Source of the DNA: Escherichia coli
GTDB taxonomy: Bacteria; Pseudomonadota; Gammaproteobacteria; Enterobacterales; Enterobacteriaceae
Direction: 5' to 3' (one strand)
NCBI RefSeq assembly: GCF_011045215.1
Contig: NZ_CP049201.1
Length of the DNA: 64,000 nt
Below, in pieces: positions 20,701-26,700 of this stretch; the stretch's first letter is position 1, and each line of letters begins with the position of its first letter. The position numbers are program-made.

Positions 20701-23700
20701 ATATCACCAACATTCAGAGATTCCAGCTCCTTAATAACCCAGTTTTCCATAGTTCCTCTAAATTATGGTTAATTTATCAACAGAATAACATCACTCGGAT
20801 TTATGGGTAAGGATATGGAATGCCAAACCGTGATCGATTCAGATGCCATTTTGCAGTTATACACTATTGAGTATTATATTGTTATGAAAATATCTGTACT
20901 TATGGAATATTTAATTCTGATGATGGGGCTCTGGTTTGTTGTATGGTTAATTACGGACTGGTTACCTCATATCTGACGGAAAGTGGTATCAGTGTGTATT
21001 CGCATTGACCGGACATCGACATATAACGAATTACGTTCCGGACAAAACTCTCCTGCAGGAAAGGGTAACATTGTATTTTAAACATATTATTCAACCAGTC
21101 ATAAGCATAAACCGACCGCCGTATGTAGCCATTAAGCCAGTATTGGTAACGAAGATACCCACCTTTTCAAAAAGGAAGTGGATAAAAGATAACGAAAATG
21201 CGAAGAGTTGATTAATACATTGAAACAAAATTCATTAATGATGAACTTGGAGAAAAGCTCCATCAAAATACGACACGACCTGTCGTAATTTGTGTTAGCC
21301 AGGAAAGAATATCTACTACTCACTAAAATGATTTAGTGCTGAAAATATTTACAAGCCAATAAATTGACTGGTATTACGGAGTAACGCCCAGGCTATGTTA
21401 ACGAACCCGCTGTTTTATTGGCTCAAAAAACATATCCCAGAGATGTTCAGCCATACCCTCGTTAGTGAGCAAGGTATCCCCTTAGTAGCCAGGGCTGAAG
21501 ATGCCCATTGATGGGCGAAAACCAAGGATCTGGCCGTTAGAACAGTTATGTCGTTAAACACATCACCACCATATGCCATCCGGTTCACTTCGTCGGCCAA
21601 ATTAGTGTGATATTCTTTCCAGAAATGCTGTTGTATCCACGACATAAGGCGATGATTGATGGAGCAGTCTCTCAATTTTGAAATGTTGCGCAGCCAGTGG
21701 CCGGAACTGGCTGAACTCGCGTGTATGGCGGAACGCTATGTTCACTCCGATCCGGAAAGCTGTCTGGTCAAGCTGCGCAACTACACCGAATTGATGGTGC
21801 GCTGGTTGTATCGTCAGGAGCGGTTGCCGGAAGGTATTAAGGCTAATCTTTACGATTTAATGAATGCTGATGTCTTTACCAGCATGATGCCGGAAGCCAT
21901 CATCATGAAAATGGATGCGCTGCGTATCCATGGCAACCGTGCCGCGCACGGCGGACATATCAAAGCTAAAGATACTTACTGGCTGCTCAAAGAAGCGTAT
22001 TTGTTGGGAATTTGGCTGTATGTTCGCTACGCCCACGGTAATGTTGATGACTGCCCCAAATTTACACTCCCTCCATTAACACAATCTTCAGGTCGTGCAG
22101 ATGAAAAACGTCTGGAAGATGCAATCAGGGCTCAGGATGAAAGCCGTGAGCGCGAACTGGCGCTGCAACGCGCACTACAGCAAGAACAGGAAAAGGCCGA
22201 ACACCTCACTCAACGCCTGAATGAAGCCAGAGCGCGTAACCAGCATGTTGCCGATATTCTCTCTATTGATGAAGCGGAAACCCGCCGTCGCCTGATTGAC
22301 TCTCGCCTGCTTGCTGCTGACTGGAATGTAGGCGAAGACCTTAAAAATACCGATCAGGTTACGCAGGAACATCCCGTTAAAGAACAACCTACCGCGACCG
22401 GAGACGGTTATGCGGACTATGTCTTGTGGGATGAGGCACACAAACCGCTGGCGGTGGTGGAAGCAAAAAAAACCAGCGTCAATGCCGAGCAAGGACGAAT
22501 TCAGGCCCGGCTGTATGCAGACTGGCTGGAAAAAGAATACGGCCAGCGTCCGATCATCTTCTACACCAACGGCTATGATATCTGGCTGTGGGATGACCAT
22601 AAAACTCATGGTTATCCCCCGCGTCGGGTGTTTGGCTTCTACAGCAAGGAAAGCCTGCAATATCTTATTCAACAGCGTGAAACCCGTCTGCCGCTGAACA
22701 ATGTGCTGCACGTAAAGGATAACGAAGGTAAGGCCGTTGCCGGACGTTTGTACCAGCTTGAAACCATTGCTCGTGTCAGCGAACGGTTTACCAATAAATA
22801 TCGTCAGTCATTAATCGTTCAGGCCACCGGCACCGGTAAAACCCGTGTAGCGATTACACTGAGCAAACTGATGATAGATGCCCGCTGGGTAAAACGCGTC
22901 CTGTTTCTTTGTGACCGCAAGGAATTACGTAAACAGGCGGCGAATGCCTTTAATCAATTCACCAATGAGCCGCTGTATGTAGTTGGAAAATCGAAAAAAG
23001 CAGACAGGCAGAACGCCAGGATCTACATCGCCACCTATCCAGGCATGATGAAAATCATGGACCATTTCGATGTCGGTTATTTCGATTTGATCATCGCCGA
23101 TGAATCCCACCGCTCTATCTACAACGTCTACGGCGATCTGTTTAAGTATTTTGATGCCCTCCAGATTGGCCTGACGGCCACGCCGATTGACATGGTAAGT
23201 AAAACCACTTTCGGCCTGTTTGGTTGTGAAGGACGTATTCCTACCGCCAACTACAGCCTGGAAGATGCCATCGCCGATAACAATCTGGTTCCCTATGAGG
23301 TTGTCACGCACACCACAGAATTCCTGCGGGAAGGCATCAAACGGGAGAAATTAAGCGACGCACAAATCCGCGAGCTGGAAGAACAAGGCATAGATCCCAA
23401 TACGCTGGAGTTTGATGGCAAGGTGCTGGATGAGGCGATCTACAACAAAGACACCAACCGCTATATCCTGCGTAACCTGATGGAAAATGGCCTGAAAGAT
23501 CGGGACGGCCAGTTGCCAGGTAAAACCATCATTTTCGCCCGTAACCACAAACACGCGCTGCTGTTGAATGAATTGTTCGACGATATGTACCCACAGTTTG
23601 CCGGGCGCTTCTGCTAGGTCATCGACAATTACGATCCCCGTGCCGAGCAACTGATTGATGATTTTAAAGGGCTGGATGAAAGCACCAACAAAGAGCTGAC

Positions 23701-26700
23701 CATCGCTATCTCCGTTGACATGCTCGATACCGGTATTGATGTCCCGGAAATTGTGAATCTGGTCTTTGCCAAACCGGTCAAATCAAAAGTGAAGTTCTGG
23801 CAGATGATTGGCCGTGGTACGCGCCTCTGTCCGGGGTTGTACGGTTACGACGATAACGGCAAGCCGCTGGATAAACAGAAATTCCGCATTTTCGATCACT
23901 GGGGCAATTTTGAGTATCACGAACTGCATACCGAAGAGGCCGAAGTCACAGCGACAAAATCGCTTGCACAAAAACGCTTCGAAGCGTGGGTTATGCTGGG
24001 GGCCGCTGCGCAACGTAAATTCGACAAACAGGCGGTGGATTTAGTTGCTCACCAGCTTCGCGAGCAAATCAACGCACTGGATGAAAAGTCGATTGCCGTA
24101 CAGGAAAAGTGGCAGCAAAAAGCGCAGTACAGTGATGCAAAGGTGCTGCGCCAGCTTTCTCCGAAAACACAGCAGGATCTGCTATCTGTTCTGGCCCCGC
24201 TGATGCAGTGGCTGGACGTACGCGGGCAAAGCGATGCCATACGCTTTGATATGGATATTCTGGCGGCGCAAACTGCCCGTTATACCAACCCGGAAGAGCT
24301 GGATGTGCTCTGGCCGGTCATCGTCGAAAAAGTGGAGCGCCTGCCGTCGCATTTGGCGCAGGTGCAACAGCAGGGACAGCGAATCAATCAGCTTCGTGAT
24401 TTGGGCTGGTGGAAGCAAGCCAGTCTGGAAGAGCTGGAGGATATCCGCATTCATTTGCGCGGTATCATGCACCTGATGGAAAAAGACGCGACGCCGAAAT
24501 TTGGTTCTATACAGGTGGATATTACCGAAGATGCGAACCTGATCCAGACGGAAACCCGCAAAACCAACATTCGCTCGATTGATTTCAAACTCTATCGCCA
24601 GCAGGTTCAGGGGGCACTGGAGCCGCTGTTCCAGCAAAATCCGGTGCTGAAGAAAATCCGCAACGGCGAGCCAGTCACGCAAAACGAGCTGGATGAACTG
24701 GCGAAGCTGGTGCTGATCCAGAACCCCAACGTTGATATCCGGGCACTGAAAGAGTTCTATCCGCAGGCAACCGCCAGCCTGGATAAACTTTTGCGTACCA
24801 TCATCGGGATGGACAGCGACGCGGTGGAAGTGCGCTTTGCTCAGTTCGCCGCTGATAACAGTCTGACCAGCCAACAACTGCGCTTCCTGTCATTGCTGAA
24901 AAACCACATTCGCGATTACGGCACCATTGAAATGCGGCAGCTCTTTGAACAGCCTTTTACGCATATCCACAACGAAGGCGTTACCGGTGTGTTCCCTGAT
25001 ATAGAGCAGATCGCCCGCCTGCAAAAGATAGTCGAAGAGCTGGGTGTTGTGACCGACGTAGCGACGGTATAATACGCACATGACAAGCCCCGGCAGCGGG
25101 GCTTTTGTATTTAAAACAGGATATAAAAGCTAACAATGATCACTGGTGACTTAAAAAGTAAAATCAACGGCCTGTGGGAAGATTTCTGGGTGGGTGGTAT
25201 CACCAACCCGCTGACCGTAATCGAACAGATCACCTATCTGATGTATTCCCGGATGCTGGATACCCAGGAACAACGCGACGAGAAGCGTAAACAAATCGCG
25301 GGAATTGATTTTAAACCGCGTTTTGCGCCAGAACAGCAGGAGTTCCGTTTCAGTCACTATAGCAATCTTGGCTCGGATGAGATGATGGAAGTGGTGCGCG
25401 ATGGCGTATTCCAGCATTTTCGTCAGCTCGGCCAGGCCGATGCGTCGAAGGTGACGCTGCTGGGCAACTTTATGAAAGATGCTCGTCTGGAGATTGTTAA
25501 GCCGTCATTACTGACCAAAGCGGTTGAGGTGATCAAAAACCTGCCGCTGGATCGTGGCGACACCAAAGGCGACCTTTACGAATACCTGTTAAGCAAGCTG
25601 ACCACTGCCGGAATCAACGGTCAGTTCCGCACGCCGCGCCACATTATCCGCACGATGGTTGAAATGATGGAGCCGAACCCGGCCCGCGGCGAGACGATTT
25701 GTGATCCCGCCTGTGGCACCGGTGGTTTTCTGGCAACCAGCTATGAATATCTTCTGGAGAAGTACAGCTCGCTGGAATCCATCCATACTGAGATTGGCAC
25801 CAACGAACGTGGCGAGCTGGAAGAGCAAAAAATCTTTACCGGCGATCTGCTGACACCGTGGCGTAACCATGTAGATAACAATATGTTCCACGGTTACGAT
25901 TTTGATACCACCATGCTGCGTATCGCCGCCATGAACCTGATTATGCACGGTGTGGAAGCGCCGGATATTCACTATCAGGACACCATGAGCCAGAGCTTCA
26001 GCACTAACTTCCCTCAGGCCAGTAAAAACGCTTTCAATCTGATTCTGGCGAACCCGCCTTTTACCGGTTCACTGGACGAGGAAGATATCGACTCCACGCT
26101 GTCGGCAATGGTGAAAACCAAAAAAACCGAACTGCTGTTCCTGGCGCGTATTCTGCAAATGCTGAAAGTGGGCGGGCGCAGTGCCACTATCGTGCCGCAG
26201 GGCGTGCTGTTTGGCTCCAGCAAGGCGCACCAGTTACTTCGCAAAACGCTGGTGGAAGATAACCAACTGGAAGCGGTGATCAATCTGCCTTCTGGTGTAT
26301 TTAAACCTTACGCTGGCGTGGCGACGGCGATCCTGATCTTTACCAAAGGCGGTCAAACGGATGAGGTCTGGTTCTACGATCTACAAAATGACGGCTACAG
26401 CCTGGATGATAAGCGCAACCCGATAAAAGACAACGATCTGCCGCATCTGCTGGCAAGCTGGAAGCATTACCGTACTTTACGCGGGCTACCGGTTGATAAC
26501 TTTATGGGTGAGAAGTTAGCCTCGTTGCTTAAACAGCAGTACCCGGAAGGGATTGATGCTGGCGTTGATTTTAAAGATCGCACGCAGGCGGCGTTTGTTG
26601 TACCGAAAGCGGATATTGCTGCGCAGAAATACGATCTCTCTATCAATCGTTATAAAGAGGTGGTGTATCAGGCGGAGGAATATGAAGATCCGAAGGTGAT

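What the first reader, a model, noticed from the sequence alone, without database searches (positions are those of the whole stretch)
21656..25072. Type I R-M system with hsdR knocked out by one in-frame TAG while hsdM and hsdS are intact
The two hsdR ORFs share a frame and are separated only by TAG at 23615..23617 (…QFAGRFC*VIDNYDPRAEQ…), which falls between helicase motifs and removes motif VI from the product. This predicts a restriction-minus, modification-plus state unless the stop is suppressed. The N-terminus also carries a DUF4145-like extension, uncommon in classical HsdR.
Basis: seen in the sequence. Interest (0 to 1): 0.45.

Follow-up and report, generated by a model that had tools for sequence, protein, structure and literature searches.

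The report
Amber-inactivated hsdR in Type I R-M
A single C-to-T change has put a stop codon in the middle of the cutting/motor subunit of an otherwise intact E. coli Type I restriction-modification system, which is an ordinary gene-decay event in a genomic island that carries several other broken genes.

Summary
TAG at 23615-23617 interrupts one 1137-codon hsdR frame (21659-25072), between helicase motifs IV and V. hsdM (25136-26770) and hsdS (26767-27894) are full length.

About 400 complete E. coli genomes carry this gene. The four orthologues read at this codon have CAG, and no complete genome contains the TAG-bearing 28-mer. An independent read-based assembly (Logan, SRR11014969) is 100% identical over 12.8 kb, TAG included.

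The mutated base is the inner C of a CCAGG Dcm site. It is the only one of about 400 possible single-base nonsense changes in the gene that sits on a methylated cytosine. The classical 5-methylcytosine deamination route to amber codons is therefore the likely origin.

The lesion is not isolated. The same pheV island has two more CAG>TAG ambers (31902, leoB 38040), three frameshifts, a 45-bp deletion and a 4.1-kb transposon insertion.

The best reading is a recent, lineage-private pseudogenisation that gives a restriction-minus, probably modification-plus genotype, as in textbook hsdR mutants.

The DUF4145 N-terminal extension is a HEPN domain. Its fusion to REase-helicase proteins is already described, and it is a standard feature of this HsdR subfamily.

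Interest is low. What remains open is whether an amber suppressor exists elsewhere in the genome.

The parts
21659..23614 (+). hsdR 5' part, 652 codons. It contains DUF4145/HEPN (aa 24-111), the PD-(D/E)xK nuclease (aa 249-270), the RecA1 motor domain (motifs I 391, II 481, III 506) and the start of RecA2.
21728..21991 (+). DUF4145 (HEPN-superfamily) N-terminal domain of HsdR
   Evidence: Pfam PF13643, E 6.5e-9, 36.2 bits against a cut-off of 23.1. HEPN assignment and fusion to REase/SF2 helicase modules are from PMC3710099.
23615..23617 (+). In-frame amber codon TAG. Orthologues have CAG. The C>T change is at 23615, the inner C of an ancestral CCAGG Dcm site.
23618..25072 (+). hsdR 3' part, untranslated unless the TAG is read through. 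It holds motif V (23717-23740), motif VI (23801-23824), a helical region and the EcoEI_R_C domain (about 24593-25021).
25085..25104 (+). G+C-rich hairpin followed by a T-rich tract between hsdR and hsdM (terminator-like). A TATAAT hexamer at 25068-25073 overlaps the hsdR stop codon.
25136..26770 (+). hsdM, intact, 544 aa (HsdM_N + N6_Mtase; NPPF at aa 306; DPACGTGG SAM motif)
   Evidence: Private changes are 10 synonymous and 3 non-synonymous.
26767..27894 (+). hsdS, intact, 375 aa. It is a hybrid: TRD1 is identical to that of E. coli D2 and TRD2 is identical to that of E. coli CU42ET-1.

Best explanation
This is a real, recent nonsense mutation (Q653amber) seen in no other available genome. 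It lies in the hsdR gene of a chromosomal Type I R-M system carried on a pheV-tRNA genomic island of E. coli.

Likely origin (inferred): deamination of the Dcm-methylated inner cytosine of a CCAGG site that escaped very-short-patch repair, turning CAG into TAG.

The 652-aa product keeps the HEPN domain, the PD-(D/E)xK nuclease and RecA1. It lacks helicase motifs V and VI and the C-terminal domain, so it should neither translocate DNA nor cut (inferred from Type I enzymology).

HsdM and HsdS are intact and hsdM still shows purifying selection. The M2S1 methyltransferase is therefore expected to keep methylating its hybrid-specificity target, giving an r-minus m-plus genotype (inferred, not measured).

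The event is part of general decay of this island in this lineage, not a regulated or programmed feature.
For: - The stop is in frame inside a single HsdR family model.
- Four orthologues have C at 23615. About 396-412 of 5426 complete E. coli genomes carry the gene, and none contains the TAG-bearing 28-mer.
- Logan contigs assembled from the reads of SRR11014969 are 100% identical to window 20829-33617, including the TAG.
- Of 402 possible single-base nonsense changes in hsdR (110 of them transitions), exactly one lies on a Dcm 5-methylcytosine, and it is the one observed. The CCWGG>CTWGG deamination and Vsr-repair biology is described in PMC2715241.
- The stop lies between motif IV and motif V. 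Mutations in any DEAD-box motif of the R subunit abolish ATPase and translocation, and a 2M+S trimer acts solely as a methyltransferase (PMC3874165).
- hsdM private changes are 10 synonymous and 3 non-synonymous, and the protein is full length with its catalytic motifs. HsdS is full length with both TRDs.
- Other lesions in the same island: ambers at 31902 and 38040, frameshifts at 11897, 15121 and 33723, a 45-bp deletion at about 31465, and a 4.1-kb transposon/IS insertion at 16717-20847.
- The singleton spectrum is dominated by G:C>A:T in this lineage (14 of 20) and in its relatives (47-63%), so no unusual mutator is needed.
Against: - No phenotype data are available; neither methylation nor restriction was measured.
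- A terminator-like hairpin lies between hsdR and hsdM and the consensus scan found no promoter for hsdM. Independent hsdMS expression is therefore assumed by analogy with EcoKI, not shown.
- dcm is outside the window, so the methylation state of the CCAGG site is inferred from the species.
- The Logan contigs may come from the same isolate or the same reads as the window, so they rule out an assembler artefact but are not a second isolate.
- All three nonsense lesions in the window being CAG>TAG is mildly unexpected (P about 0.014; P about 0.09 for three ambers of any origin; post hoc). This leaves some room for an amber-suppressor background.
Confidence: 0.85

Rival explanations
1. The TAG is a sequencing or assembly error and the gene is really intact.
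For: It is a single-base difference from all relatives. CCWGG sites are known, from my own knowledge, to be systematic error sites in some long-read consensus sequences.
Against: An independent k-mer assembly of SRR11014969 reads gives the same base within a 12.8-kb stretch of 100% identity. The contig breaks at the IS boundary, as short-read assemblies do. Two other ambers in the window are not at Dcm sites, and both are also in Logan contigs.
Confidence: 0.03
2. The strain carries a Gln-inserting amber suppressor (supE-like tRNA-Gln with a CUA anticodon). UAG at codon 653 would then be read partly as Gln, regenerating wild-type HsdR, and the same would hold for the other two CAG>TAG genes.
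For: All three nonsense lesions in the window are CAG>TAG, so Gln insertion would restore the exact wild-type proteins. The chance probability is about 0.014 under the empirical spectrum, or 0.09 for three ambers of any origin.
Against: The test is post hoc on three events. The same island also has three frameshifts and deletions that no suppressor could rescue, so relaxed selection alone explains why the lesions persist. G:C>A:T dominates the spectrum, which makes CAG>TAG the commonest nonsense route. The only tRNA in the window is tRNA-Phe.
Confidence: 0.05
3. Loss of hsdR was positively selected rather than neutral. It may have relieved self-restriction after hsdS acquired a new hybrid specificity by TRD reassortment, or it may have opened the strain to incoming DNA.
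For: HsdS combines TRD1 of the D2 type with TRD2 of the CU42ET-1 type, and no complete E. coli genome has this combination. The closest relative, C5, has its own independent nonsense codon in hsdR (W14 to TGA). No second disabling lesion lies downstream of the stop, so the event is recent.
Against: The order of events cannot be established. For Type IA and IB systems, ClpXP-dependent restriction alleviation normally protects cells during a specificity change (PMC3874165). Many unrelated genes in the island are also broken, which fits drift.
Confidence: 0.12
4. The nonsense codon is polar. Premature termination leaves about 1.45 kb of untranslated hsdR mRNA, so transcription of hsdM and hsdS is reduced and the system is effectively r-minus m-minus.
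For: The scan found no sigma-70-like promoter on the + strand between the TAG and hsdM at its threshold. The gene order is hsdR-hsdM-hsdS with a 63-bp gap.
Against: A strong terminator-like hairpin directly after hsdR (25085-25104) suggests that hsdR is normally its own transcription unit, which implies a separate hsdM promoter. A perfect TATAAT lies at 25068-25073. The private changes in hsdM are mostly synonymous (10:3), consistent with continued function.
Confidence: 0.15

Closest known systems
Classical hsdR-null (r-minus m-plus) mutants of Type I systems such as EcoKI
   Same: A point mutation in hsdR abolishes restriction and leaves the M2S1 methyltransferase. The gene order hsdR-hsdM-hsdS is the same. 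The lesion lies in the motor region, whose motifs are each essential (PMC3874165).
   Different: This HsdR belongs to a different, HEPN-bearing subfamily of about 1137 aa with an EcoEI_R_C tail. It sits on a tRNA-associated island, not in the immigration control region. The phenotype is untested here.
Amber-mutation hotspots at Dcm sites (CCAGG>CTAGG; the lacI amber hotspots of Coulondre and Miller, cited from memory) and Vsr very-short-patch repair
   Same: The change is identical: the inner C of CCAGG becomes T, converting CAG to TAG. The deamination and repair logic is described in PMC2715241.
   Different: Here it is a natural allele in an accessory gene, not a selected reporter mutation. 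The strain's dcm and vsr status is not visible in the window.
Type IB HsdR (EcoAI/EcoEI family) and the Vibrio vulnificus HsdR fragment, PDB 3H1T
   Same: They share the PD-(D/E)xK + SF2 motor + EcoEI_R_C architecture. The best solved relative is 3H1T (E 7e-30 over aa 200-724). The NCBIfam EcoAI/FtnUII and PRK11448 models both match.
   Different: Scores are far below both equivalog cut-offs (186+36 against 550, and 250+74 against 729). There is an extra N-terminal module of about 200 aa (HEPN plus a charged linker) that is absent from the EcoAI-like model (PADLOC PDLC03049 aligns only from aa 203).
HEPN (DUF4145) fusions to REase and SF2-helicase modules (Anantharaman et al. 2013, PMC3710099)
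   Same: The domain order is the same: an N-terminal DUF4145 followed by a restriction-endonuclease fold and an SF2 helicase, in an R-M operon.
   Different: Nothing is new here. The role of the HEPN domain in these HsdR proteins remains uncharacterised.

Membership tests
Type I R-M restriction subunit (HsdR) | PD-(D/E)xK endonuclease motif N-terminal to the motor | tested here: met
   Pfam HSDR_N at aa 147-316. D...E-x-K string at aa 249-270, ending in EAK.
Type I R-M restriction subunit (HsdR) | Complete SF2 (DEAD/DEAH) motor with motifs I-VI in one polypeptide | tested here: not met
   Motifs I, II and III are upstream and motifs V and VI are downstream of the TAG at codon 653. The motifs are all encoded, but not in one translatable frame. 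Orthologues with CAG meet this feature.
Type I R-M restriction subunit (HsdR) | Adjacent hsdM and hsdS genes on the same strand | tested here: met
   hsdM at 25136-26770 and hsdS at 26767-27894.
Type I R-M restriction subunit (HsdR) | ATP-dependent translocation and cleavage remote from the recognition site | not testable with these tools
   This needs biochemistry or phage plating assays.
Type IB family (EcoAI/EcoEI) | Sequence membership at NCBIfam equivalog level (NF046051), or complementation/antibody cross-reaction | tested here: not met
   185.7 and 35.9 bits for the two halves against a cut-off of 550. Only the EcoEI_R_C domain is shared. Complementation is not testable here.
Type I methyltransferase (M2S1) | HsdM with SAM-binding and NPPF catalytic motifs, and HsdS with two TRDs and conserved spacer regions | tested here: met
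   NPPF at aa 306, DPACGTGG, and N6_Mtase E 1e-59. HsdS aligns along its full length to the D2 (TRD1) and CU42ET-1 (TRD2) proteins.
Type I methyltransferase (M2S1) | m6A methylation of a bipartite target in vivo | not testable with these tools
   This needs a SMRT or nanopore methylome.
Dcm 5-methylcytosine deamination hotspot mutation | C>T at the inner C of CCWGG | tested here: met
   Orthologues read CTGCCAGGT and the window reads CTGCTAGGT. It is the only such nonsense site in the gene.
Dcm 5-methylcytosine deamination hotspot mutation | Host is dcm+, so the site was actually methylated | not tested
   dcm and vsr lie outside the 64-kb window.

The most novel reading that the evidence does not exclude
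The isolate is a natural amber-suppressor strain carrying a Gln-inserting tRNA with a CUA anticodon. The three CAG>TAG codons (hsdR 23615, the membrane-protein gene at 31902, leoB 38040) would then be leaky alleles, not null alleles. Restriction and the neighbouring defence and virulence genes would be expressed at a level set by suppressor efficiency.
Probability: 0.05. Interest if true: 0.5.

Novelty: already known. Interest (0 to 1): 0.15.

Why it matters
For annotation, hsdR here should be called a pseudogene and the system recorded as a probable orphan Type I methyltransferase with a hybrid, unsampled specificity.

For anyone working with the strain, it predicts one fewer restriction barrier to incoming DNA. 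It also predicts one m6A motif in the methylome that cannot be matched to a restriction phenotype.

It is also a clean natural example of the Dcm-site CAG>TAG hotspot. Beyond that it teaches nothing new about Type I systems.

Tried and rejected
- **Sequencing artefact:** rejected, because the Logan read-based contigs are identical.
- **Shared or ancient allele:** rejected. No complete E. coli genome has the TAG 28-mer, and the exact 652-aa product is on record from one sample only.
- **Unusual mutator or strand-coordinated deaminase cluster:** rejected. The private changes around hsdR are a C>T / G>A mixture, and the share of G:C>A:T is like that in relatives.
- **SpCas9-NGG cytosine base-editing origin:** unlikely. 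Reading the sequence, no GG dinucleotide lies at +14 to +19 downstream of C23615, where a PAM would be needed for an editing window at positions 4-8.
- **Functional split HsdR or restart:** unlikely. The break is inside RecA2. The first downstream ATG (23720) lies inside motif V and has no Shine-Dalgarno-like sequence.
- **Recoding of TAG (pyrrolysine, alternative code):** rejected on organism identity. The core genes speC, nupG, mltC and mutY are 99.3% identical to E. coli.
- **In-frame TAG at 37314:** at first it looked like a fourth amber, but it is the natural stop of leoC. leoB happens to follow in the same frame.
- **Literature:** a search for the SRA run number found nothing.
- **1093-aa helicase:** PADLOC, PHROGs, NCBIfam and PDB searches gave only generic helicase-core hits.
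Full report
**1. Observation**

ORF listing and translation confirm a single reading frame from ATG 21659 (TTG 21656 is the first possible start) to the TAA ending at 25072. It is interrupted only by TAG at 23615-23617, and the local peptide is ...QFAGRFC*VIDNYDPRAEQ....

Pfam places these domains upstream of the stop:
- DUF4145 at aa 24-111
- HSDR_N at aa 147-316
- ResIII/DEAD at aa 363-511

Downstream it places the tail of Helicase_C and EcoEI_R_C.

The two halves match consecutive parts of one PADLOC Type I REase model. PDLC03047 positions 6-636 match with E 4e-175, and positions 646-1099 match with E 9e-92. This is one gene cut by one codon.

Motif search gives these positions:

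| Feature | Residue(s) |
|---|---|
| PD-(D/E)xK | 249-270 |
| Motif I, GTGKT | 391 |
| Motif II, DESH | 481 |
| Motif III, TAT | 506 |
| Stop | 653 |
| Motif V, DMLDTGID | 687 |
| Motif VI, QMIGRGTR | 715 |

The product loses motif V as well as motif VI, plus the C-terminal domain.

**2. Comparison with relatives**

The window is E. coli. The core genes to the right of tRNA-Phe (53780-53855), namely speC, nupG, mltC, mutY and trmB, are 99.3% identical to the best complete genomes. This places the locus on a pheV island with an integrase at 52422-53633.

The hsdR-hsdM segment occurs in 473 records, and 412 complete genomes cover at least 80% of it. The best match is 99.5%, in strain C5.

Intact orthologues are 3414 bp (1137 aa) in GF43, CU42ET-1 and JNU. 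All four relatives examined have C at 23615, and C5 and GF43 read CAG in the alignment.

A 37-nt query centred on the TAG found no match in 5426 complete genomes. Megablast needs an exact 28-mer, so a genome with CAG cannot score. By contrast, 396 genomes match the surrounding 121 nt. The allele is private to this lineage.

**3. Is the TAG real?**

The exact 652-aa product is on record from one source only. It is a Logan contig assembled from run SRR11014969, and it has the same downstream genes. That contig is 100.000% identical to window 20829-33617. A second contig from the same run carries the leoB amber.

This excludes an assembler-specific artefact. It does not prove a second isolate, because the window may derive from the same reads.

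**4. How the mutation arose**

The ancestral context is CTGCCAGGT. The mutated base is the inner C of CCAGG, which is the Dcm target.

Enumerating every single-base change of the orthologous gene that creates a stop gives 402 changes, of which 110 are transitions. The gene has six Dcm sites. Exactly one nonsense change lies on a Dcm-methylated cytosine, and it is the observed one.

Deamination of 5-methylcytosine in C(5me)CWGG gives a T:G mismatch in CTWGG, which Vsr normally repairs (PMC2715241). From textbook knowledge, these sites are the classical amber hotspots of lacI.

I regard this origin as likely, at about 0.65. It remains an inference, because dcm lies outside the window.

**5. Consequence**

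A 2M+S trimer acts solely as a methyltransferase. Mutations in any DEAD-box motif of the R subunit abolish ATPase and translocation (PMC3874165). A product lacking motifs V and VI and the C-terminal domain should therefore be restriction-null.

The evidence that hsdM and hsdS remain functional is as follows:
- HsdM is 544 aa, the same length as its orthologues, with DPACGTGG and NPPF.
- The private substitutions in hsdM are 10 synonymous and 3 non-synonymous, which fits continuing constraint.
- HsdS is full length. Its TRD1 is identical to that of strain D2 and its TRD2 is identical to that of CU42ET-1.
- No complete genome has this TRD combination, so the methyltransferase probably has a specificity not yet sampled.

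One caveat applies. An 8-bp-stem hairpin with a T-rich tail lies between hsdR and hsdM (25085-25104), and the consensus scan found no + strand promoter upstream of hsdM. A perfect TATAAT does lie at 25068-25073. How hsdMS is transcribed, and whether the stop is polar, is open.

**6. Context: the island is decaying**

Comparison with annotated relatives shows further lesions private to this window:

| Position | Lesion | Gene |
|---|---|---|
| 31902-31904 | second CAG>TAG | 421-aa membrane-protein gene after the 1093-aa helicase |
| about 31465 | 45-bp in-frame deletion | same gene |
| 38040-38042 | third CAG>TAG | leoB, split into 238 + 331 aa |
| 11897 | +1 A frameshift | OLD-like AAA/TOPRIM ATPase gene |
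| 15121 | -1 frameshift | gene for a 222-aa hypothetical protein |
| 33723 | -1 frameshift in an A-run | 5'-nucleotidase gene |
| 16717-20847 | 4.1-kb insertion carrying Mu/Tn7-like and IS4/Tn5-like transposase genes, about 800 bp upstream of hsdR | intergenic |

Relatives show independent damage in the same island. C5 has TGA at hsdR codon 14 and many annotated pseudogenes. Z1323MEC0001 retains only hsd remnants.

**7. Are three ambers too many?**

The singleton spectrum in the hsdR-hsdM segment is 14 of 20 G:C>A:T for the window, against 47-63% in four relatives. There is no special mutator signature.

With the pooled empirical spectrum, the probability that a nonsense hit is CAG>TAG is 0.36 for hsdR, 0.14 for the 421-aa gene and 0.27 for leoB. 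The joint probability is 0.014. For three ambers of any origin it is 0.09.

This is a post hoc pattern in three events. Three frameshifts in the same island cannot be rescued by suppression.

I keep a Gln-inserting amber suppressor as a 5% possibility. It is the one reading that would make the locus interesting, and a tRNA scan of the full genome would settle it.

**8. The DUF4145 extension**

DUF4145 is a HEPN-superfamily domain. Anantharaman et al. explicitly list fusions to restriction-endonuclease and SF2-helicase modules, and occurrence in R-M operons (PMC3710099).

The PADLOC family model includes the extension. The EcoAI-like model PDLC03049 aligns only from residue 203.

Within this subfamily, however, it is standard and already described.

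The nearest solved structure is the Vibrio vulnificus HsdR fragment 3H1T. NCBIfam scores stay below the EcoAI and PRK11448 equivalog cut-offs. That is why RefSeq names the intact orthologues only 'DEAD/DEAH box helicase family protein'.

**9. Verdict**

The feature is an ordinary, recent, lineage-private pseudogenisation of hsdR, with a neat mechanistic signature at a Dcm site. The phenomenon is already known and the interest is low.

Noticed in passing
window 31278-32560 (stop at 31902-31904; deletion at about 31465): The gene after the 1093-aa helicase is the orthologue of a 421-aa multi-TM 'hypothetical protein' of E. coli CU42ET-1. It carries a second CAG>TAG amber that is not at a Dcm site. 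It also has a 45-bp in-frame deletion at a short repeated motif (TTTTCTTGAGCT occurs on both sides of the deleted stretch in CU42ET-1).
   Followed up: yes
window 37326-39041 (stop at 38040-38042): leoB, of the leoCBA dynamin-like operon next to tia, is split by a third CAG>TAG amber. Strain JNU is 99.9% identical here and has CAG. leoC and leoA are intact.
   Followed up: yes
window 27901-31182 and 31278-32560: A 1093-aa DEAD/ResIII helicase with a C-terminal region of about 600 aa that has no family match, followed by a membrane protein. The pair sits in the variable slot downstream of hsdS. The same pair follows hsdS, or hsd remnants, in about a dozen E. coli genomes. Other strains carry a PIN protein, Dsr1, SIR2 or an AAA ATPase in that slot. 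PADLOC, PHROGs, NCBIfam and PDB give only helicase-core hits. It may be an uncharacterised defence module.
   Followed up: partly
window 26767-27894: hsdS is a recombinant: TRD1 is identical to that of strain D2 and TRD2 is identical to that of CU42ET-1. The combination is absent from 5426 complete E. coli genomes, which implies an unsampled Type I specificity.
   Followed up: yes
window 11847-13662 (extra A at 11897): The OLD-like AAA_15 + TOPRIM ATPase gene (604 aa in strain C5) has a +1 frameshift at codon 17. The long ORF now starts at 12001.
   Followed up: yes
window 33098-34060 (A-run at about 33723): The 5'-nucleotidase gene (PADLOC PDC-S08 candidate) is truncated by a 1-bp deletion in an A-run. 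Strain Z1323MEC0001 has a different internal stop in the same gene.
   Followed up: yes
window 16717-20847: A 4.1-kb insertion relative to strain C5 lies about 800 bp upstream of hsdR. It carries Mu-transposase/rve-type genes (16817-19235, minus strand) and an IS4/Tn5-like transposase gene (19335-20750, minus strand). Its effect on the hsdR promoter is unknown.
   Followed up: partly
L001 (E. coli C5), position corresponding to window 21698-21700: The closest relative has its own nonsense codon in hsdR (TGG>TGA at codon 14), and RefSeq annotates a downstream start. This is independent damage to the same gene in another lineage.
   Followed up: partly
window 294-11522: A T6SS gene set (tssA-like, tssF, tssG, tssJ, vasL) has two defence-like genes between tssJ and vasL: a T5orf172/MUG113 protein (6895-7752) and a NERD + UvrD-like helicase (7945-9732).
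   Followed up: no
window 21659-22300: The N-terminal 210 aa or so of HsdR (HEPN plus a charged linker) also matches the N-terminus of PADLOC candidate PDC-M16A (E 7e-41). The module is therefore shared with another candidate defence protein.
   Followed up: no
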